From assembly GCA_003695605.1 (NCBI GenBank), contig RFIK01000006.1:1-30500 (forward strand): a DNA stretch of 30,500 nt, read 5' to 3'. The notes below the pieces were generated by a model. It was not told the DNA's origin and made no database searches. It saw only the letters and a list, made by a program, of their open reading frames with translations. The stretch is from Chlorobiota bacterium. GTDB taxonomy: Bacteria > Bacteroidota > Ignavibacteria > Kapaibacteriales > NICIL-2. The position numbers were made by a program, and so were the translations under genes. Shown here in pieces: positions 1,254 to 30,500 of the stretch. Every line of letters begins with the position of its first letter. The stretch's first letter is position 1.

Positions 1254-2783
1254 TTACTTTCTGATGCTGCCAGTCAGCTTGTATGCCCCTATCCAAAGGT
1301 AATTGGAACTATCCAATACTGTTCCGATCAAGATTCCATCACGAAAATCATGGGGAATGAAATGATTCCCCGCATACAAATCATGCGTGAAGACTGGGCT
1401 GCCGTCCGGCCAACAACAGTGGAGATACTCACGATGCTGAACGCGTGCATCGCTAAAGTCAACTACGCCTTCGGGGTACTCGGTATTCCGATACGGCAAG
1501 AGGAACATCCCGGTTGTCTTGTCGTAGAAAATCTTGCGAAAAGCTATATTTGATACCAACCCATCAAGGGGTGTTCCATCCTTGATAGTTAGTTTTCCGT
1601 TTCTCTCTGGCAGATCCCAAGATGGAACTCGATAGGTATCGGAAAAATGTAGTGGAATGACTTTTATGAGGTTGCCCCTGCGATCCCAGACTCGGAGCGA
1701 CCGACCAAACTGAAAAAGGGATACTGTTGTGCTATCACCATAACAGCCAAAGATAGCACCAAGCCATCGGGAAACTCGGTACTGATAGTAAATGCTATCA
1801 ATGCCACGTCCAATTGCAACAGTTTTACCTGTTATGTCTCCAACCCAGATTGTTGTGTCCTCTGGTGTCAGCAAACGGTGGGGAGACGTTCCACTTCTTG
1901 AAATGTATATTTTCCCATCGCAGTAGCCGCATTCTATGTCGAGGGGTAGCTGGCGCGATAGATAGCTTACATTGTGTAGCGTTGGCTCACCGATCGTGTA
2001 GAGAGCAAGATAGTGGGGATATTCGAAGGTGGATCCACAGATGAGGAGCGACTTTCCGGGTGTATCCCAATCTATTGAACCAATACCCATACAGTGCAAC
2101 GAATCCAATCGAATTGGCGTCCGTGTTCGAATGGTTCCGGTGCTATCAATAATCAACAGCTGGCATTGCGTTCCATTGACGAGGTAAAAACTCTTCCTCT
2201 CGGGACCAACAAGCATTAGTCGTGACCATCCCGACTTTAGCATGTGTCCCGCCGTATCTCGTACAGGAAGTTTCCATAGCAATTCGAAGTACCGCTCAAG
2301 ATCTGTTCGTTCGATCACAACAGTGTTCGCCAGTGAGTCCCGGAGTGAGCGTAGAGTCGTTCCAACAGTTTGTGACGTAGGAGATTCGATTGCTAAGATT
2401 TTACCAACCCTATCAAGAATCAAAATGACTGGGAGCGTTCGGATTTTGTAAAAATTCCGATAGATTTGAAACTCATCTCCCACAATAGGGCACTCAATCT
2501 TTTCCTCTCTGCGAAATGCTTCTGCATCTGATTGAGAAAATCCATCGAGGAAGACAACGTACTCAACCGGATAATTACGCAGCTGTTCGTAGAATTGCTC
2601 AATATTCATCATGCAGATGACACAATTCGAGCGATCGGTGAATACATAGACTCGCATTGCGTAGTCGCTCTGCGGCTTGAGCGGACGCACAGTGTCGCCA
2701 ACGTAAAAATCAGTATAGCGAAGGCTTTCTTGCGAGAAAAGCAACACTCGGACGACCAGGAGGATAGCAAGGATGTGTTTCAT
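1254..2783 (-). CDS. Secreted protein: N-terminal thioredoxin/redoxin (TlpA/AhpC-TSA-like) domain with CxxC, plus a C-terminal beta-rich, probably beta-propeller, region (509 aa)
   Basis: Start moved to MKHILAILL (ATG at 2783), a signal-peptide-like stretch. CVIC at 2613-2624; cis-Pro loop RTLPVILILDRVGKI. The remainder has short beta-strand repeats (LLIIDSTGTI, LRVWDRRGNLIKVI). The propeller call is an inference. Confidence 0.8.
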   Translation of the reverse strand: MKHILAILLVVRVLLFSQESLRYTDFYVGDTVRPLKPQSDYAMRVYVFTDRSNCVICMMNIEQFYEQLRNYPVEYVVFLDGFSQSDAEAFRREEKIECPIVGDEFQIYRNFYKIRTLPVILILDRVGKILAIESPTSQTVGTTLRSLRDSLANTVVIERTDLERYFELLWKLPVRDTAGHMLKSGWSRLMLVGPERKSFYLVNGTQCQLLIIDSTGTIRTRTPIRLDSLHCMGIGSIDWDTPGKSLLICGSTFEYPHYLALYTIGEPTLHNVSYLSRQLPLDIECGYCDGKIYISRSGTSPHRLLTPEDTTIWVGDITGKTVAIGRGIDSIYYQYRVSRWLGAIFGCYGDSTTVSLFQFGRSLRVWDRRGNLIKVIPLHFSDTYRVPSWDLPERNGKLTIKDGTPLDGLVSNIAFRKIFYDKTTGMFLLPYRNTEYPEGVVDFSDARVQHREYLHCCWPDGSPVFTHDLYAGNHFIPHDFRDGILIGTVLDSSNYLWIGAYKLTGSIRK

Positions 2784-2822
2784 TGTAAAACCTGCTGGGG
2801 CATTGCACACTATTCGAAAAGA

Positions 2823-2848
2823 GGAGGGGAGAGATGCCTCTCCCCTCC
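2823..2848 (-). terminator. Intercistronic GC-rich hairpin (partial terminator or mRNA stabiliser)
   Basis: Perfect 11-bp stem GGAGGGGAGAG-N4-CTCTCCCCTCC, followed on the minus strand by TCTTTT, between the small secreted gene and the redoxin gene. Confidence 0.7.
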
Positions 2849-2862
2849 AGGGCCGCGAACCG

Positions 2863-3330
2863 TTATGGTGTGGGGACGAAGACCGTGTATTTGCCGGTGT
2901 CATCAGTCACAATCCCGCCGAGATTGATTGTGATACCGACGAGCTGAGGGTATTCGGTGCACTCGACAATTTCGATTTCCTCAGTCGGTGTAAAGTAGTA
3001 GTTCCGCCCGTCGCGAGTGAATGTGTTCCAGTTACCCTGGCTGTCCTTTACAGACAAGGTGACTTGATCGAGCTGGAGCTCGATTGCGTAGCCGTAAGGT
3101 GGAACAGGGGTGACTTTCCCTTTGACCAGACTTGTGCATGGTTCAACGATGCAATCCACACCCCCATCATAACAACCGTGGTGACGATCGCTCCATGCAT
3201 AGATCCCTGTACCAAGAGGCACTTTCCGATGCACCCAGCAGTCCGTCTCAGCAGATGACAACGTTGTAAGCAGATGCAGCCATGATGTGGCAACAAGAGC
3301 GTACATCGCTAATCCAATGTTAGTTTTCAT
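2863..3330 (-). CDS. Small secreted Cys-containing hypothetical protein (155 aa)
   Basis: Hydrophobic signal peptide ending LSSA; five Cys in the mature part (four clustered near its N-terminus); beta-rich; hairpin directly after the stop; co-oriented with the redoxin gene. Confidence 0.8.
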   Translation of the reverse strand: MKTNIGLAMYALVATSWLHLLTTLSSAETDCWVHRKVPLGTGIYAWSDRHHGCYDGGVDCIVEPCTSLVKGKVTPVPPYGYAIELQLDQVTLSVKDSQGNWNTFTRDGRNYYFTPTEEIEIVECTEYPQLVGITINLGGIVTDDTGKYTVFVPTP

Positions 3331-5734: not shown

Positions 5735-7960
5735 ATGGCTGTTGAACATGAGGCTCAGCAAAAACGCACACCGACGGTTGTAGAGACGTTCCCGGTTGTA
5801 GGAATCTCTTGCGCAGCATGCGCACGTTCGATTGAGTCGCTGTCCCGGTCAGTTCCGGGAGTGCAACGTGCAGAGGTGAACGTTGCGACTGCGACTGTAA
5901 CGCTCGAGTACGATCCGTTGGAGGTGCAGCCGGCTGACATTGCCTCTGTCCTTCGCGAATTTGGCTACGATTTGGTGCAGGCAGAGGATACTGCAATCGC
6001 CCTTGCCGATGCTGCACAACGTGAACACCGCTCACTCGACCAGCTCAAGATTCGCACGATAGGTGCTGCGATCGCGACAGTGCCAACGGTCGTGCTGGGA
6101 ATGGGAGCCTGGCATACCCAGCGCTGGGCAATTCTGCTCAGCGCTGCTCTCTCGAGCGCGGTCGTGCTGTATTTCGGACGCCAATTCTTCGTGCGTGCGT
6201 GGTCGCAAATCCACGCACGTGCACTTGCGATGGATACACTTGTTGCGTTGAGCACCGGAATTGCATGGGGATGGAGCCTGGTCGCTGCACTCATACCGGC
6301 ACAACTCCGAGCGTTAGGTATCGAACCGCACGTGTACTTTGAGTCGGCTGCAACGATCGTCACCTTCATTTTGCTCGGGAGATACTTGGAGCAACGCGCC
6401 CGCTTGCAAACAAATGCTGCACTGCTTGCTCTCGTAGAACTCCAGCCACGCTCGGTTCACCTGCATCGGAACGGAGTCCTGACGGACACACCGCTTGCAG
6501 CGGTGCAGCGCGGTGATCACATCGTTGTGCTGCCGGGTGAACGCATCCCCGTTGATGGCGTCGTACTCGACGGACAGTCGTGGGTGGACGAGCAGCTGTT
6601 GAGCGGTGAATCGCTGCCTGTCGCGAAAGCTCAGGGTGATCGGGTCTATGCAGGAACACTCAACGGCGATGGAGCACTTGTCATCGAAGCGCGTGCTGTC
6701 GGTCGTGGAACCATCCTTGGCAGCATTGTTCGTGCGGTCGAGCGAGCACAATCGAGCAAATCACCCACGCAGGAACTCGCCGATCGGATTGCTGCGGTGT
6801 TCGTACCGGTTGTTCTCGCTGTTGCAGCGTTGACCGCAGTTGGATGGATAGTTTTCGCTCCTGACAAAGCCAGCAGCCTTGGTCTGCTTTCCGTAGTATC
6901 GATGTTGATTGTTGCCTGTCCATGCGCACTCGGCCTTGCAACGCCGACGGCGATTGCTATTGCGTTGGGGCGTGCGGCAGAGCAAGGCATTCTTGTCCGC
7001 AATGCACGCGCCTTTGACGTACTCCCGGAGCTTACCCATGTCGTGTTTGATAAGACAGGCACTCTCACGCAGGGGAAACCAACGGTGGTACATGCGACGT
7101 GGTATGTGCCAGAGCTTGAACGTCGAGACTATGCTCGGCTCGTGCGGGCTGTACTCGAGCGGAGTACGCATCCTCTCTCGCTGGCAGTTGCTCAATGGCT
7201 CAATGTGCCTGCGGCGGGTGAATGTACTGTTGAGCAGGTACGAGGGCGTGGTCTTCGTGCGTGGAATGACTCGCATACAATTTTGGTCGGAAATCGCGCG
7301 TGGATGGAAGAGCACAGCGTCGAGCTTTCTGCCGAAAGTCAGGCTGCGGCAACGGAGGTCTTCGTAGCGATTGATGGTAAGCTTCTGCTGGCAGTCTGGC
7401 TGCGCGATTCGATCAGAAGTGATGCACGCAAGGTTGTCGAGTACCTACGCTCACGTGGTACTGCTCTACATCTGGTGAGCGGGGATCGCCGAGATGTGGC
7501 AGAGTACGTTGCAGCAGCCGTTGGCATCGAGCATGTGCTTGCTCCAGCTCTTCCGCAAGAGAAACAAGACTACGTTCGCCGACTCCGCCTGGAGACGAAA
7601 GGCAATGTCGCAATGGTTGGTGATGGGATCAACGACGCGCAGGCGCTCGCCGAGGCTGATACGAGCATTGCGTTAGGGAGTGGTAGTGATGTCGCAGTCC
7701 ATGCAGCGGACGTTACGTTGATCGGGGAGCAGCTTTCCTTACTCATCGTGCTGATACATCTTGCCGAAAGACTACGGCGCATCATCCGACAGAACTTGGG
7801 CTGGGCTTTTCTGTACAATCTTGTGCTAATCCCTATTGCGGCAGGTGCACTCTATCCAATCAATGGTGTGTTGTTGCATCCAATGCTAGCTGGATTTGCG
7901 ATGGCAGCAAGTTCGGTGTCAGTTGTTACCAATAGCCTCCGCTTACGGTACGGAATGTGA
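5735..7960 (+). CDS. copA: Cu(I)-translocating P1B-type ATPase
   Basis: N-terminal HMA GISCAAC, CPC in TM, DKTGTLT phosphorylation site, HP motif, GDGIND hinge, YN and MxxSS Cu(I) ligands. Start is TTG 5729 or ATG 5735. Confidence 0.95.
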
Positions 7961-19910: not shown

Positions 19911-20169
19911 CATTGCACGTTGTCAACGCATGGCCTCAGGCTGCGTCTAATTGTCTGACTTTGTGTGGCTATGTTTTTCTGGCACAGAATATTCTGGTAA
20001 CCTCAGGAATTCAACGAATCCACGAAACAAAATGGCGCGCAAGCGTGTTACTGAAACTGAAGCTGTTCAACGACTCAATGGAGATACGTGGCATGACCAA
20101 ACTGTGACCATTTCGCGCTCGCGAGAGCGCATTTATGGAAGTGCCACATTTGATCGAAAGGAGCCAGCA

Positions 20170-20775
20170 ATGGACCTGACCAAGCAACTCGAACAACTCT
20201 ACCGCACCGATCGGAAGAAGCTGCTGGGCTTTATCCGACAGCGGGTCAAGACGCAAGAAGAAGCCGAAGACATCCTCCACGATGTGTTCGCGAACGTTCT
20301 TGCAGCAGCGCAGACAGTGGATAAACCAATCGAAAACGTCGCATCGTGGGTATTCACTGCTGTGCGTAACCGCATTATTGACTCGTATCGAAAGAAAAAG
20401 ACCGATGCGTTCTCGGACATGCTCACGCCTTCTCAGGTGGATGAGGGGGTCGAGTCGTTCGAGAACTTCATCGCCGACGAAAGCTACTCACCCGACACAG
20501 AACTCCTCCGCAAGACGATTTGGGAGGAAGTTCAAAAAGGGCTTGCCGAGCTTCCGCCAGAGCAGCGCGAAGTCTTCGAAAAAAATGAGTTCGAGGGTGT
20601 CTCCTTCCGAGAGATGAGTGAAGCAACCGGTGTCAACATCAATACACTCTTGGCGCGGAAGCGGTACGCTGTCCTGCACCTGCGGAAAAAGCTCGGTTAC
20701 CTTTACGACATGCTCAACAACCGCGAAGAGCAGCCTGACGACATCGAAAACCTCGAAACGGAAGTCGAGTCCTAA
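20170..20775 (+). CDS. ECF sigma-70 factor
   Basis: Region 2 (EAEDILHDVF, SWVFTAVRNRIIDSYRKK) and region 4 (LPPEQREVF, FREMSEATGVNINTLLARKRYAV). RBS AAGGAG precedes ATG 20170; an alternative start exists at 20032. Confidence 0.92.
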   Translation: MDLTKQLEQLYRTDRKKLLGFIRQRVKTQEEAEDILHDVFANVLAAAQTVDKPIENVASWVFTAVRNRIIDSYRKKKTDAFSDMLTPSQVDEGVESFENFIADESYSPDTELLRKTIWEEVQKGLAELPPEQREVFEKNEFEGVSFREMSEATGVNINTLLARKRYAVLHLRKKLGYLYDMLNNREEQPDDIENLETEVES

Positions 20776-27250: not shown

Positions 27251-27880
27251 CTACGCACCGTCAGAATTGCCCCAGCGGGGGGGGGCGGAGACTCCAAGCA
27301 TTTTCCGGAGTTTTGCGATTGCGCGATAGTAGCGTTGGCGGACGGCGTCAACCTTCATTCCGACATGCACTGCGATTTCGGCAAAACTTTTGCCGCTGCA
27401 GTACTCTCGTATGATGTACTGATCGCATTGGGAAAGCTTGCCGAGCGCTTCAGAGATCAAGAGGATGTCCGTGGTGACTTCTGCGTTTGCCGAGCTTGTG
27501 AGTTCAGCGTTGAAGTCTGTCTCGTAGTGAACACGTCGGTAGTGAGGTGTTACTTGATTCGACAGATATGAGCGTGCTGCCTTGATGCAATCGGAAACAA
27601 GAAGATGCAAAAGAGGGCAGGAGCAGTCAGAGCACTGGATGCAACCATGTAAGCAAGTATGGCGCGGGCATGCGATCGCGGGATTTTGTGCCATCGAGCG
27701 CGTTGCGTTCTCGATCCCGACGCAGACGCCTAATCGAACCCAATCTTCGGGGAGTACGTGGTGCCACAAGATTCGCCAGGAGTTGTGGACGACGCCGAAG
27801 ATCCTCCGGTAGTGTTCAGGAGACATCATCAGGCGGTAAAGTGCTTCCCACCGGGCGCGTGTGCAGTTGTCATCACTCAT
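27251..27880 (-). CDS. Divergent ECF-like sigma-70 factor with an internal Cys/His-rich insert (209 aa)
   Basis: Clear region 4 (ALGKLSQCDQYII...GKSFAEIAVHVGMKVDAVRQRYYRAIAKLRKML). Region 2 is only weakly recognisable (PEDWV; LLHLLVSDCIKAARSYL) and flanks CPRHTCLHGCIQCSDCSC. Confidence 0.75.
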   Translation of the reverse strand: MSDDNCTRARWEALYRLMMSPEHYRRIFGVVHNSWRILWHHVLPEDWVRLGVCVGIENATRSMAQNPAIACPRHTCLHGCIQCSDCSCPLLHLLVSDCIKAARSYLSNQVTPHYRRVHYETDFNAELTSSANAEVTTDILLISEALGKLSQCDQYIIREYCSGKSFAEIAVHVGMKVDAVRQRYYRAIAKLRKMLGVSAPPRWGNSDGA

Positions 27881-28229
27881 GACATGGTACTCCGACGATC
27901 ATCCTGCATGACGAAAATACACAACGCACTCTGAGCTATCAATAGCGTATTCCAGCAGGAAAAATTTTTCCATCAGCGTGTCACAACTTGCCGATTTCGA
28001 GTACATGGGATATGGAAGCGCGCAACCATTTGTGCGCTCAGTTTGGCAAAGCGAACCGACTATGGCAAATTGCCGCCATCTTCGTGCTGTGGCAGGGCTG
28101 CATGCACGAGTCCATTGGGCAGAATGTGCGGCGCTGGCTGATGGTGCTTGTGTGTAGGAGTTTCTGCCAGCCGCACCAGCACGGAGAGGCGGGAAAATCA
28201 GGATATTTCACTGCTATTTTGAGACAACA

Positions 28230-28943
28230 ATGTTGCGTAAACTGTGTGTTGCTGCACTTGTTCTTGCATCCGTCGTATCCTCTCAGGCTGGCGAGACAGG
28301 TGCGAAGGCAATTCTCCAAAACGAGAACAACTGCCGGCCTCCGACAATTATCACACTTCCGTGTCTCGGGGGTTGTTACGAATGGTCGGTTCAAGAGGAC
28401 CGCAATTGTGATGGCGTGTACGACTGGATTACAGTGAAGCGATGTGATGGCTCGCTCTGTTCTCAACCGATTCAGTCCGTTGCATATCCGATTGGGAATA
28501 TTGCTGATGGAGTCTTCAGTATCGCGTTTACTTCTTGGCAATGTGCAGACGGACGCTGGCAGTGGCAGCTTGATCTCTTCGACCGTGATTCTTCATTACT
28601 GGCATCGGTGATACAGAGGTGCGGAGATTCTACACCGCAGGTGGTGTACCCTGCACCACCGGTGATAGCTCAGAGCAGCAACGAAGCTGAAACTTCCCAA
28701 GCGCGCATTTTCCCAAATCCGACTACTGGAGAACTTTTGATCACGAATGCAGAAGCGGTGGTAAAGATTGATGTGTATGACAGCAAAGGGCGAAGGATCG
28801 AGACACCGGCCCTCGAGGCACGGAAGGATGGTGAAACGTATGTACTACGACTCTCTGATAGCCTGCCATCGGGTGTTTATCTGCTCGCGATCCATCGAGC
28901 AGGACAAAAGCCAGAATTCGTTCCGTTTGTTATGTACCACTAA
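28230..28943 (+). CDS. Secreted Cys-rich protein with T9SS type A sorting domain (paralog A, 237 aa)
   Basis: Signal peptide; 8 Cys in the N-terminal domain; CTD IFPNPTTGEL...VYDSKGRRI...LPSGVYLL. Confidence 0.9.
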   Translation: MLRKLCVAALVLASVVSSQAGETGAKAILQNENNCRPPTIITLPCLGGCYEWSVQEDRNCDGVYDWITVKRCDGSLCSQPIQSVAYPIGNIADGVFSIAFTSWQCADGRWQWQLDLFDRDSSLLASVIQRCGDSTPQVVYPAPPVIAQSSNEAETSQARIFPNPTTGELLITNAEAVVKIDVYDSKGRRIETPALEARKDGETYVLRLSDSLPSGVYLLAIHRAGQKPEFVPFVMYH

Positions 28944-28956
28944 CTTGGCATTCAAA

Positions 28957-29697
28957 ATGAAACTCTGGTCAAGAGCCATTGCACTTGCGATGATTGCTAC
29001 TGTTCTTGTTGCTGAACCAGCAAAGCCACAGATGTACCAATGGCAGTGCCCCGGACCAAATGGCGGGTGGGGCTGGCAGGTCCTTGAAGATCGTGATGGG
29101 GATGGACGGTATGACTGGGAAACGCGGCATGAGTGTGACGGTTCGATCTGCGAAGGCCCACTTGGAGTTAGCAACAAACGACAAATTGGGTACTTATCAG
29201 GTTGGGTGTCACTCTCGTTTACGCAGCTTGTTTGCGAGGAATCTGTTCCCAATGGGTGGTCCCTCCGTTTATTCGACACCAACGGTCTTCTCATGGGGAC
29301 AGTTGAGCATTCCTGTTCCGATACAACTGCGAAGCTCATTCTCCCTGAAGTTGTGCCGGAGTCCCTCAAAGGAGCAGACTTTCGAAAACGCCAAGCGCTT
29401 GGCCGATACGCATTCGTATTCGAGAATCTCAGCGCGACATGGAATGCTGCTTCTTCGACGCTTGATGTAACATGCCGTGTCAAAATCCCTCTTCCCTTGA
29501 CACTTCGCGTATTGGAGCGGAATCGTGGGCAAGAGGATCGAGTAATTGCAACGGTCGTTACTCCGCAGCCTGTGGTAGGAGAACGTGTCATTCACGTCCC
29601 AGTACCGCCACTGCATTCTGGGATGTACTACTGGCAAGTGATGGCACCGAATGGATCAGCTGTGACAAGTGTATTTACGATCGAGTCGTTGCGATAA
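28957..29697 (+). CDS. Secreted Cys-rich protein with a divergent T9SS-like CTD (paralog B, 246 aa)
   Basis: Start moved to MKLWSRAIALAM (ATG 28957). The N-terminal domain aligns with paralog A; the C-terminus has LHSGMYYWQV. Confidence 0.85.
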   Translation: MKLWSRAIALAMIATVLVAEPAKPQMYQWQCPGPNGGWGWQVLEDRDGDGRYDWETRHECDGSICEGPLGVSNKRQIGYLSGWVSLSFTQLVCEESVPNGWSLRLFDTNGLLMGTVEHSCSDTTAKLILPEVVPESLKGADFRKRQALGRYAFVFENLSATWNAASSTLDVTCRVKIPLPLTLRVLERNRGQEDRVIATVVTPQPVVGERVIHVPVPPLHSGMYYWQVMAPNGSAVTSVFTIESLR

Positions 29698-29734
29698 ACG
29701 GTTCGGAGAGCCGTGCAAAGTTGTTTCACTAATA

Positions 29735-30050
29735 ATGGTGATTGCCATGTTCATCTTGCTCATTGCTCTCATCTTCTCCTTGTGGCAGTCTGAGTTGAGC
29801 AGAGCCACGCAAATCAACTAACCCCGCGGGCTATGGCTGTTGGGCAGCACCGCCTCATGAACCGGGCTTAGTCAAGTGTGAAGGGAATTGTTCGAGAATC
29901 TGTGCTCTCTGTGAACTCGGTGTGTACGGTGGTGACTATCCAGACCGTCTCGTTCTCTTTGATTCGAATGGTGATCCATCATTTGAATCGCAGTGCCGGT
30001 ACATCATGCCAGCATCCGATGGGAACGGGTTCTTCGTTGAATTGCCTTGA
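29735..30050 (+). pseudogene. Frameshifted small secreted Cys-rich protein (signal peptide and mature domain in different frames)
   Basis: ATG 29735 opens MVIAMFILLIALIFSLWQSELSRATQIN* (stop 29819-29821). The +1 frame is open from 29799 to 30050 with six Cys and no upstream start codon; a hairpin follows its stop. Not in the supplied ORF track. Confidence 0.6.
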
Positions 30051-30055
30051 GTAGC

Positions 30056-30078
30056 AGGGGAGCCGATACGGCTCCCCT
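30056..30078 (+). terminator. Intercistronic GC-rich hairpin
   Basis: Perfect 10-bp stem AGGGGAGCCG-ATA-CGGCTCCCCT, 5 nt after TGA 30050. Confidence 0.7.
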
Positions 30079-30111
30079 CTACCTTTCTTGTCCACTACAT
30101 AGGATAGGTCA

Positions 30112-30500
30112 ATGTACAACCAAATGAATGTGCTGAGCGTAGCTTTTACTCTGTCTTTGCTCTGTTCTTCCGCAGCAGCCGTTGAGCACATCTACACTGA
30201 TTCACTCAGGAATAGCATCGTAATATCAAGTCCTATCATGAAGTCGTTTGTAAGTGGCCATGGTACTGCCGCGCCGATTCATGTTGTGTTCTTTATTTCA
30301 CGCCCCCGTGCGTATATCTATGGCGAAGCCTTAGTTGCGAAAACAATTAGCCAGCTGCAGACGTTGGGATTTGATGGTACAATTACCGTCGTGGTTCGTG
30401 GGAGGAGATACTATGCAGACATTGAGTATGTAAGAAGGCAACGCTGGCTGGCGAGAGTGTACATTGATACGTCGGGAAGGCTGCTGGAAGCTGCGAGGAT
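30112..30500 (+). CDS. Secreted protein with a redoxin-like N-terminal fold lacking CxxC; truncated by window end
   Basis: Translated by hand, open to 30500: MYNQMNVLSVAFTLSLLCSSAAA...IHVVFFISRPRAYIYGEALVAKTISQLQTLGFDGTITVVVRGRRYYADIEYVRRQRWLARVYIDTSGRLLEAAR. The strand-helix-strand-helix pattern suggests a thioredoxin fold (inference). Confidence 0.7.
   Translation, partial: MYNQMNVLSVAFTLSLLCSSAAAVEHIYTDSLRNSIVISSPIMKSFVSGHGTAAPIHVVFFISRPRAYIYGEALVAKTISQLQTLGFDGTITVVVRGRRYYADIEYVRRQRWLARVYIDTSGRLLEAAR

What the first reader, a model, noticed from the sequence alone, without database searches (positions are those of the whole stretch)
27251..30500. Candidate undescribed extracytoplasmic module: Cys-insert ECF-like sigma divergent from Cys-rich T9SS paralogs, a small disulfide-rich secreted protein and a redoxin-like gene
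Seen in sequence: a sigma-like gene with 11 Cys lies 349 bp from, and divergent to, a run of four co-oriented genes. All four have signal-peptide-like N-termini: two paralogs sharing a Cys-rich domain, a frameshifted 6-Cys mini-protein, then a hairpin and a redoxin-like gene. No anti-sigma gene is visible. Established: ECF sigmas often control adjacent genes, T9SS CTDs route proteins to the cell surface or medium, and periplasmic redoxins manage disulfides. Inference: a metal- or redox-gated sigma drives export of a family of disulfide-stabilised effectors (signals, adhesins or antagonistic proteins) plus their folding or immunity partner. I recognise no named system with this layout.
Basis: partly seen in the sequence, partly recalled or inferred. 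Interest (0 to 1): 0.8.

Follow-up and report, generated by a model that had tools for sequence, protein, structure and literature searches.

The report
Orphan sigma beside leader-controlled secreted-protein genes
One genus of hot-spring Kapabacteria has a small accessory locus where a fast-evolving, cysteine-studded sigma-factor-like gene sits beside genes for secreted cysteine-rich proteins. Each operon there is headed by an undescribed ~125-nt RNA hairpin; the locus is real and unnamed, but narrowly distributed and of unknown function.

Summary
The interpretation needs revision.

**Last gene.** The "redoxin-like gene" is the first 129 residues of a ~602-aa secreted protein cut by the contig end. 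It has a thioredoxin-fold domain that has lost its CxxC, plus a six-bladed propeller.

**Conserved core.** The core is not sigma plus T9SS paralogs. It is a small Cys-rich secreted protein, a terminator-like hairpin, the Trx-propeller protein and a Kelch propeller. Distant homologues share this core, and sister species keep it in the same slot without any sigma.

**Small gene.** The window's copy is broken by a 2-bp deletion that relatives lack.

**New here.** A ~125-nt covarying RNA hairpin precedes every small–big and paralog operon, with or without the sigma. Rfam has no match.

**Sigma.** It has a clear σ4 and a divergent σ2 carrying a four-Cys insert. It occurs in only 8 clusters among 5.8 billion proteins, always at this slot. 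In sigma-bearing loci a promoter-like block appears upstream of each leader.

**Reading.** Most likely the sigma was recruited late as a regulator of a leader-controlled secreted cassette. Metal or redox gating is untested.

**Earlier notes.** Scan notes on this window already flagged the Cys insert, the frameshift and a second cassette.

The parts
27251..27880 (-). Orphan ECF-like sigma gene: 209 aa, 11 Cys, monocistronic, no anti-sigma
   Evidence: Sequence family hits: Pfam Sigma70_r4_2, E=5.2e-7, 29.7 bits against a cut-off of 25.7. No Sigma70_r2 hit. TIGR02937 scores 36.8 bits, below its 42.9 cut-off. Structure: AF2 model pLDDT 75.6 with a sigma2-like helix order. VIA-align gives whole ECF sigmas at Z 8.7-9.3 and sigma2-only chains at Z 6.5-6.8. 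Selection: dN/dS 0.37-0.56 among close relatives.
27617..27670 (-). Cys-rich insert (residues 71-88) between sigma region 2.2-like and 2.3/2.4-like helices
   Evidence: C71, C83, C88 and C98 are invariant, and C75/76 is conserved with a one-residue shift, across 9 family members down to 49% identity. In the model this is a low-confidence loop, residues 65-88.
27914..27942 (-). Sigma-70-like promoter match (TTGATA-17-TATTTT) just upstream of the sigma gene
   Evidence: Consensus scan only, 9 of 12 positions. The number of such matches is no higher than in shuffled sequence. Weak.
27980..28008 (+). Bipartite promoter-like block, GTCACA...GAGTACATGG, readable as TGTCAC-N17-TACATG
   Evidence: Found 59-61 nt upstream of the hairpin in 9 of 9 leader copies from sigma-bearing loci and 0 of 3 copies from sigma-less genomes. 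The pattern was defined post hoc, and the sigma-bearing loci are related to one another.
28069..28196 (+). Conserved ~125-nt extended hairpin: the 5' leader RNA of the par1 operon
   Evidence: Covariance model R1. Twelve distinct copies were scored. On 11 distinct sequences, 94.2% of cells pair against 78.8% in shuffles; 30 of 40 pairs show double changes against 13.2±2.5; slid controls give 5-9. The + strand folds at -69 kcal/mol (z -4.8) and the - strand at -47 (z -2.1). No Rfam match.
28230..28943 (+). par1: secreted protein with a ~100-aa, 4-Cys N-domain holding an EDRxxDGxYDW motif, plus a T9SS type A C-terminal domain (residues 160-225, window 28707-28904)
   Evidence: Pfam Por_Secre_tail E=4.3e-8. 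Only 2 other clusters in 5.8 billion proteins. Alignment A14 shows 4 invariant Cys. The SprA translocon is present in this genome.
28957..29697 (+). par2: paralog with the same N-domain and a divergent C-terminal region with no detectable CTD
   Evidence: BLASTP against par1 gives E=7e-18. No Pfam or NCBIfam hit. dN/dS 0.16-0.21.
29735..30053 (+). Small Cys-rich secreted protein gene (smallA), broken by a 2-bp deletion near 29797
   Evidence: An intact 105-aa orthologue exists in G013. Contigs of runs X3, X5 and X16 carry the extra CA, while X2 matches the window. Family alignment A13 has three invariant Cys and a C-terminal LP.
30057..30077 (+). GC-rich hairpin plus T-rich tract between the small and big genes (terminator or attenuator-like)
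   Evidence: A strong hairpin lies at the same position, with unrelated sequences, in 6 of the 7 small-big junctions folded. In the seventh, L024, the minimum-energy fold differs although its stem sequence matches L010's.
30112..30500 (+). N-terminal 129 aa of the ~602-aa secreted Trx-like/six-bladed-propeller protein (bigA), cut by the contig end
   Evidence: 98% identical to the full-length P0007 of G013. AF2 model pLDDT 82. The best solved match for the propeller is 3s9j (DUF4221), Z 20.9. AFDB hits are thioredoxin/TlpA-propeller proteins. The CPRC motif survives only in distant members.

Best explanation
This is a lineage-restricted accessory locus of a hot-spring Kapabacteria genus. It sits in a fixed slot between an NlpC/P60 gene and sucD.

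**Core cassette.** The old, conserved core encodes secreted proteins in this order:
- a small Cys-rich protein (about 80 aa mature);
- a terminator-like hairpin, which probably lets the small gene be expressed in excess;
- a ~600-aa protein with a thioredoxin-fold domain (CxxC lost here) and a six-bladed propeller;
- a Kelch-type propeller.

A pair of paralogs joins this core. They share a 4-Cys, calcium-loop-like domain, and one of them carries a T9SS sorting domain.

**Leader.** Each operon is preceded by a ~125-nt covarying RNA hairpin. I read it as a shared 5' leader acting after transcription starts, through stability, processing, or binding of a factor or ligand.

**Sigma.** In one subclade an orphan ECF-like sigma with a four-Cys insert in sigma2 was inserted divergently. 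At the same time a new bipartite promoter-like block appeared upstream of every leader copy. I infer that this sigma now transcribes these operons.

**Shown:** gene anatomy, folds, synteny, the RNA structure and its distribution.
**Inferred:** the sigma-promoter link, the attenuator role, and any metal or redox sensing by the insert.
For: **Core cassette.** The small gene lies directly upstream of the big gene in homologues that are only 21-31% identical. A Kelch-like gene follows in L010, G013, G011, G014 and L029. A hairpin sits at the small-big junction in 6 of 7 cassettes folded.

**Fold of the big protein**.

**Leader.** It is present upstream of small-big and of par1-par2, in genomes with and without the sigma. 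Covariation and strand asymmetry support an RNA structure.

**Sigma.**
- It is found only at this slot, in 10 of 10 loci.
- Its frame is intact everywhere, and dN/dS is below 1.
- It has a sigma4 domain and a sigma2-like fold.
- The promoter-like block is found in 9 of 9 leader copies from sigma-bearing loci, including second copies that are not next to the sigma gene, and in 0 of 3 copies from sigma-less genomes.
Against: - Sigma region 2 is not recognised by any sequence method, and the structural Z of 6.5-6.8 is modest for a helical domain.
- The cassette and the leader work without the sigma in G011 and G014.
- The promoter-block pattern was defined after seeing the alignment, and the sigma-bearing loci form a related group, so the 9/9 against 0/3 contrast is not independent evidence.
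- No transcription start is known. The 'RNA' libraries that hold the locus also hold contigs of 25-54 kb, so DNA carry-over cannot be excluded.
- Genes in the locus are broken in several strains: smallA here, par1 in G013, bigB in L018. This suggests relaxed selection.
- The function of every protein is unknown.
Confidence: 0.55

Rival explanations
1. The sigma-like gene is a bystander. It is a fast-evolving orphan regulator, or a degenerate sigma-like protein, that landed in a variable slot. The secreted operons are driven by housekeeping promoters and controlled only by the RNA leader.
For: The cassette and leader exist without the sigma in the same slot. dN/dS for the sigma is 0.37-0.56, against 0.03-0.14 for the adjacent NlpC gene. 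Sequence methods detect no sigma2. Contigs break at this locus in several assemblies, so the region is variable.
Against: The sigma never occurs elsewhere, in 10 of 10 loci. The upstream block is conserved even in leader copies several kb from the sigma gene, and only in sigma-bearing genomes. The Cys motif and sigma4 are invariant down to 49% identity.
Confidence: 0.22
2. A metal- or redox-gated sigma without an anti-sigma drives export of disulfide-stabilised effectors together with a periplasmic redoxin that folds them or protects against them.
For: There are four to five invariant Cys in the sigma2 insert and no anti-sigma. Cys-based on-board sensing has precedent in CorE-type ECFs (PMC8999054). 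The secreted proteins have invariant Cys. The last gene has a thioredoxin fold.
Against: The Trx domain has no CxxC in this lineage; it reads PRAFIYGE where distant members have CPRC. The known Cys sensors are C-terminal extensions plus a linker CxC, not a sigma2 insert (PMC8999054). The four Cys could simply be a structural zinc site. The sigma is dispensable for the cassette in sister species.
Confidence: 0.13
3. The conserved 250-nt spacer is a DNA-level element, such as operators or an inverted-repeat binding site, rather than a structured RNA.
For: It lies in a promoter region. The two most conserved 7-mers (GTGCGGC and GCCGCAC) form an inverted repeat.
Against: Many G-U pairs would be A-C mismatches on the other strand. 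The sense strand folds 22 kcal/mol better than the antisense strand. Thirty of 40 pairs show double changes that keep pairing while the sequence drifts. The arms are about 45-100 nt apart, which does not suit dimeric operators.
Confidence: 0.08

Closest known systems
Group 4 (ECF) sigma-70 factors, e.g. SigR, SigE, BldN, SigH, SigL
   Same: About 200 aa and two helical domains. A clear sigma4 helix-turn-helix. Helix order in the N-domain matches sigma2. Whole-chain structural matches are all sigma factors.
   Different: No sequence-detectable region 2. It falls below the TIGR02937 cut-off. An 18-24-residue Cys-rich insert sits between the 2.2-like and 2.3-like helices. There is no anti-sigma. 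The family is tiny, with 8 clusters.
CorE-like metal-sensing ECF sigmas (ECF44/ECF238) and OrbS with an on-board iron sensor (PMC8999054; PMC9023288, title and abstract only)
   Same: A sigma without an anti-sigma that carries its own cluster of cysteines. This is the mechanistic analogy for on-board sensing.
   Different: In CorE the sensor is a C-terminal Cys-rich domain plus a CxC in the sigma2-sigma4 linker (PMC8999054). Here sigma4 ends about 14 residues before the C-terminus, and the Cys cluster lies inside sigma2.
TlpA/thioredoxin-domain + beta-propeller proteins (AFDB clusters A0A1M3KXH7, A0A7X7IQD9). From my own knowledge, the Trx-NHL architecture of NHLRC2.
   Same: An N-terminal thioredoxin fold followed by a six-bladed propeller. 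Distant family members keep a CPRC active site. The same window holds a second such protein with CVIC at 1254-2783.
   Different: There is no CxxC in the window's lineage. No Pfam or NCBIfam family covers the protein. It is paired with a small Cys-rich protein and a Kelch propeller.
DUF4221 six-bladed propeller (BVU_1028, PDB 3s9j)
   Same: It is the best solved structural match for residues 203-602: Z 20.9, 311 residues aligned, rmsd 3.6 Å, about 4 Z units above the NHL propellers.
   Different: 10% identity, no Pfam hit, and an extra Trx domain. The function of DUF4221 is itself unknown; no paper in the library mentions it.
T9SS type A C-terminal-domain cargo proteins
   Same: par1 and its orthologues pass the Por_Secre_tail model, and the genome encodes SprA.
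   Different: par2, the small protein and the big protein have no detectable CTD. The N-domain matches nothing known.
Structured 5' leader RNAs (riboswitch-like or protein-binding leaders, 5' stabiliser stem-loops)
   Same: It lies upstream of coding genes in the sense direction. Its helices covary. The apical loop and a 3' internal loop are highly conserved and could pair with each other.
   Different: No Rfam family matches. There is no terminator or RBS-sequestering helix. It is restricted to one genus. Any ligand or partner is unknown.

Membership tests
ECF (group 4) sigma-70 family | Region 4 (sigma4) helix-turn-helix | tested here: met
   Pfam PF08281, 29.7 bits against a cut-off of 25.7. 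Structural matches to sigma4 domains give Z 8.2-9.2 at rmsd 1.0-3.9 Å.
ECF (group 4) sigma-70 family | Region 2 (sigma2) recognisable by sequence (PF04542 or TIGR02937) | tested here: not met
   No PF04542 hit. TIGR02937 scores 36.8 bits against a 42.9 cut-off and covers only residues 103-195. hhalign against a canonical ECF of the same genome aligns sigma4 only.
ECF (group 4) sigma-70 family | Sigma2 fold in the N-terminal domain | tested here: inconclusive
   The AF2 helix order fits. SigR N-fragment gives Z 6.8 (78 aa, rmsd 3.5) and SigE NTD gives Z 6.5 (80 aa). These values fall within the range the tool calls common for helical proteins.
ECF (group 4) sigma-70 family | Binds core RNA polymerase and directs promoter-specific initiation | not testable with these tools
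   Needs biochemistry.
CorE-like ECF (ECF44/ECF238) | C-terminal Cys-rich domain plus a CxC in the sigma2-sigma4 linker (PMC8999054) | tested here: not met
   There is no C-terminal extension. The conserved Cys lie at 71, 75/76, 83, 88 and 98 (in sigma2) and at 161 (in sigma4).
T9SS type A CTD cargo | Por_Secre_tail / TIGR04183 domain at the C-terminus | tested here: met
   par1 scores 33.8 bits on Pfam (cut-off 27) and 29 bits on TIGR04183 (cut-off 23). par2-type proteins have no hit; only the 4 par1-type members of the 8 scanned match.
Thioredoxin/TlpA-like redoxins | Thioredoxin fold | tested here: met
   The model shows beta-alpha-beta topology over residues 56-172. Top AFDB clusters are thioredoxin/TlpA-propeller proteins. 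Family members give weak AhpC-TSA and Redoxin hits. hhalign aligns the window's CVIC redoxin with this region.
Thioredoxin/TlpA-like redoxins | CxxC active site | tested here: not met
   The window and G013 read PRAFIYGE at the active-site loop. CPRC is present only in distant members P0019, P0020, P0023 and P0026.
DUF4221 propeller family | Match to the family's sequence model | tested here: not met
   No Pfam hit for P0007, P0008 or P0009. The resemblance is structural only, Z 20.9.
Any Rfam RNA family | Covariance-model match | tested here: not met
   No match at E<=1 in 27700-30500 on either strand.

The most novel reading that the evidence does not exclude
The ~125-nt hairpin, with its invariant apical loop pairing to an invariant 3' internal loop, is a new class of ligand- or protein-sensing leader RNA. 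It acts together with an anti-sigma-free sigma whose sigma2 carries a zinc/redox-sensing Cys4 insert at the -10 recognition region. The two form a two-layer switch for a secreted cysteine-rich protein and its catalytically dead Trx-propeller partner.
Probability: 0.12. Interest if true: 0.75.

Novelty: new variant of a known kind. Interest (0 to 1): 0.5.

Why it matters
**Sigma.** If it is active, it would be the first ECF-type sigma with a cysteine cluster built into sigma2, the domain that melts the -10 element. Known on-board sensors sit in a C-terminal extension, so this would extend how anti-sigma-free sigmas can be controlled.

**Leader.** The hairpin is a well-supported new RNA motif. 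It is small enough for direct probing, and it marks a regulon of otherwise unannotatable secreted proteins.

**Cassette.** The small-protein/Trx-propeller/Kelch cassette recurs in distant metagenomic lineages. A second, CxxC-bearing version lies in this same window. The locus therefore offers a natural comparison of redox-active and redox-dead forms of one uncharacterised extracytoplasmic system.

**Limits.** The distribution is narrow, at one thermophilic genus, and no function is known.

Tried and rejected
- **Complex prediction.** Complex prediction on mature smallA with bigA gave no verdict (score 0.00, partner pLDDT about 25). This is evidence neither for nor against binding.
- **par domain.** The protein-atlas search on the par1 N-domain gave no usable hit.
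- **Rfam.** Nothing matched in the region.
- **Family scans.** Pfam and NCBIfam found nothing for par2, the small proteins or the big proteins. The one exception is a sub-threshold CxxxC-repeat hit (TIGR04117, E=0.0068) on one small protein, which I take to be compositional.
- **Literature.** No paper mentions DUF4221.
- **Expression.** Two metatranscriptome libraries hold contigs over par1, par2, small and the start of big. They also hold contigs of 25-54 kb, so they cannot show transcription, starts or strand.
- **Promoter scans.** Sigma-70 consensus scanning found no more sites than in shuffles. I could not assign a Bacteroidota-type -33/-7 promoter with confidence.
- **Wider searches for the leader.** DNA and covariance-model searches found nothing beyond the genus: 16 genomes of the family and 149 other genomes of the class.
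- **Pseudogene reading of the sigma.** Rejected, because the frame is open in all loci and dN/dS is below 1.


Full report
**Setting**

The window is an entire 30,500-bp contig (C116) of a fragmented MAG: 1.87 Mb, 240 contigs, 86% complete. Close relatives carry source names such as Candidatus Kapaibacterium sp., Kapabacteria bacterium KatS3mg040 and bacterium HR20. The runs that hold most of the stretch are a hot-spring and a microbial-mat metagenome, and hot springs predominate among the other holders. The finding occupies the last 3.25 kb, so its last gene is cut by the contig end.

**Checking the observation**

All the described features are present.
- The sigma-like ORF (27251-27880, minus strand) has 209 residues and 11 Cys. 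It is followed by a convergent NlpC/P60 gene, so it has no operon partner and no anti-sigma.
- Across a 349-bp spacer lie four co-oriented genes:
  - par1 (28230-28943);
  - par2 (28957-29697), whose N-domain is 38% identical to par1's, E=7e-18;
  - a small gene split between two frames (29735-30053);
  - an open frame from 30112, preceded by a GC hairpin with a T-rich tail (30057-30077).
- A complete genome of the same genus (G013) has an intact 105-aa small gene. The window lacks two bases (CA) near 29797.
- Contigs of three other public runs carry the CA. One DNA run, possibly the source sample, agrees with the window. The break is therefore a real strain variant or a shared assembly feature, not the ancestral state.

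**The last gene**

The 129 residues are 98% identical to the start of a 602-aa protein in G013. No Pfam or NCBIfam model matches it. An exhaustive HMMER scan of 1.84 billion representatives found only 29 relatives.

An AlphaFold model built on 18 of them (pLDDT 82, pTM 0.83) shows two domains after a signal peptide: a beta-alpha-beta domain (residues 56-172) and a six-bladed propeller (203-602).
- The propeller's best solved match is the Bacteroides DUF4221 protein 3s9j (Z 20.9, 311 residues), ahead of NHL propellers at Z about 16.8.
- The best AlphaFold-DB clusters are thioredoxin-domain or TlpA proteins fused to propellers.
- In the family alignment, four distant members carry CPRC exactly at the thioredoxin active-site loop. 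The window's lineage has PRAFIYGE there, with no cysteine.

'Redoxin-like' is therefore right for fold and ancestry. The domain is redox-dead here, and it is only a quarter of the protein.

**What is conserved**

Homologues of the big protein that are only 21-31% identical are still immediately preceded by a small gene of 100-130 aa. The small proteins form one family with three invariant Cys and a C-terminal LP.

A strong hairpin with a T-rich tail sits between the small and big genes in six of the seven cassettes folded, with unrelated sequences. In the seventh, L024, the minimum-energy fold differs although its stem sequence matches L010's. This layout is typical where the first product is needed in excess; that reading is an inference.

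A Kelch-type propeller gene follows the big gene in L010, G013, G011, G014 and a distant contig.

Within the genus the locus sits in a fixed slot: PEPCK, a solute-binding protein, NlpC/P60, then the locus, then sucD, ndk and a Nudix gene.
- G013 has sigma, spacer, par1, par2, smallA and bigA, followed by a second copy of the spacer, smallB, bigB and Kelch.
- L010 and L048 have the sigma divergent to small-big, with no par genes.
- L018 has sigma, par1 and par2, then a spacer copy, then smallB and bigB.
- The sister species G011 and G014 have NlpC followed directly by small, big and Kelch, with no sigma at all. G014 places par1 and par2 after Kelch.
- The window's own genome continues on contig C225, which is collinear with the G013 locus from bigB onward. 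About 3.3 kb is unassembled.

The sigma is thus always next to these genes, but they do not need it.

**The sigma-like protein**

- By sequence only region 4 is recognised (Pfam PF08281, above cut-off). Region 2 is not found, TIGR02937 is below cut-off, and a profile-profile comparison with the canonical ECF of the same contig aligns sigma4 only.
- The model (pLDDT 75.6) has three helices, a low-confidence loop at 65-88, a long helix at 89-117, a linker and a four-helix sigma4.
- All top Foldseek and VIA-align matches are sigma factors. Whole ECF sigmas give Z 8.7-9.3, and isolated sigma2 domains of SigR and SigE give Z 6.8 and 6.5 over 78-80 residues.
- The loop carries C71, C75/76, C83 and C88. 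Together with C98 and C161 these are conserved down to 49% identity.
- Even a profile search of 5.8 billion proteins returns only eight clusters.
- The gene is intact in every locus, with dN/dS of 0.37-0.56 among close relatives. The neighbouring NlpC gene gives 0.03-0.14. It is constrained but fast-evolving.
- Known Cys-based on-board sensors (CorE, CorE2) use a C-terminal domain plus a linker CxC (PMC8999054). A sigma2 insert would be a different design.

**The spacer**

This is the main addition to the finding. About 250 nt of the spacer is 75-84% identical between loci whose flanking proteins have diverged much further. It is duplicated in front of smallB in G013, L024 and L018. One-base indels argue against coding.

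Its 3' half folds into an extended hairpin.
- In the window it spans 28069-28196, at -69 kcal/mol and z -4.8 on the sense strand, against -47 kcal/mol and z -2.1 on the antisense strand.
- A covariance model built from nine copies also finds the element in the sigma-less genomes. In G011 it lies between nlpC and small (67 bits). In G014 it lies before small (38 bits) and before par1 (27 bits). It is also present in L048 (85 bits).
- On 11 distinct sequences, 94.2% of cells pair against 78.8% in shuffles. Thirty of 40 pairs show changes on both sides against 13.2±2.5, and slid controls give 5-9.
- Caveats: the alignment is fitted to the model, and the sequences are related.
- The apical loop (GUGCGGC) and a 3' internal loop (GCCGCAC) are the most conserved segments. 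They are complementary in 74 of 77 cells, with one covarying column, so a pseudoknot is possible.
- No Rfam family matches. The element was not found in the other 14 genomes of the family or in 149 other genomes of the class.

**Link between sigma and operons**

A bipartite block lies 59-61 nt upstream of the hairpin in all nine leader copies from sigma-bearing loci, including copies kilobases from the sigma gene. It can be read as TGTCAC-N17-TACATG and sits at 27980-28008 in the window. It is absent from the three copies in sigma-less genomes, which have A/T-rich sequence there instead.

This is what a sigma-specific promoter would look like. However, the pattern was written after seeing the alignment, and the sigma-bearing loci are kin, so I treat it as a lead rather than proof.

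**Other points**

- T9SS routing of par1 is plausible: its CTD is above cut-off and SprA is encoded in the genome. par2-type proteins lack a detectable CTD.
- The par N-domain has four invariant Cys and an EDRxxDGxYDW motif that resembles calcium-binding DxDxDG loops; that resemblance rests on my own knowledge. It has only two other clusters in the database.
- Genes of the locus are broken in different strains: smallA here, par1 by an in-frame stop in G013, and bigB in three frames in L018. This fits an accessory, variably maintained locus.

**Verdict**

The locus is an unnamed, genus-restricted module. Its solid novelties are a covarying leader RNA and an orphan sigma-like protein with a Cys insert in sigma2. 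Its function, and the sigma's sensing mechanism, remain inference.

Noticed in passing
window 1254-3330 (-): A second cassette of the same design: a 155-aa secreted Cys-rich protein, a GC hairpin with a T tail, then a 509-aa protein with a thioredoxin-like domain that keeps a CVIC motif, followed by a beta-rich region. The Trx assignment rests on weak hits only (Pfam Thioredoxin_8 E=0.001; ResA-like E=0.004). hhalign aligns its Trx region with the big-protein family at 53% probability. The leader hairpin model does not hit upstream of it.
   Followed up: partly
L014:11045-11758 (-) (G013, par1 orthologue): par1 of the complete genome G013 has an in-frame stop (W112 position) in an otherwise 93%-identical gene. 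It is a pseudogene or a sequencing error.
   Followed up: partly
L018:11227-13027 (+): The bigB orthologue in GCA_053494195 is spread over three reading frames, which implies two apparent frameshifts. Only the last 316 aa were called as a gene.
   Followed up: no
window 19951-20775 (+): A canonical ECF sigma lies 7 kb away in a syntenic position in all relatives; the orthologues in L010, L011 and L018 carry Sigma70_r2 and r4_2 hits. It served as the comparator that shows how divergent the finding's sigma is.
   Followed up: partly
window 30500 / L011:1 / G000:C225:6369: Several independent assemblies break within or beside this locus. The likely cause is the duplicated leader and the paralogous small/big genes. 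The region is an assembly hotspot and is strain-variable.
   Followed up: partly
L046:3790-3921 and 7770-7890 (-) (G014): In the sigma-less genome G014 the two leader copies share a further ~130 nt upstream. This includes a GC hairpin (GCGCACTGC...GCGGTGCGCC) and an A/T-rich stretch ending in TACTTTTG, which matches the Bacteroidota -7 consensus TAnnTTTG (from my own knowledge).
   Followed up: no
L030:1036-1746 (+): Upstream of a distant big-protein homologue, the 'small' gene is a 236-aa protein made of four repeats of a YCP...C motif unit. This suggests the small partner can be multimerised.
   Followed up: no
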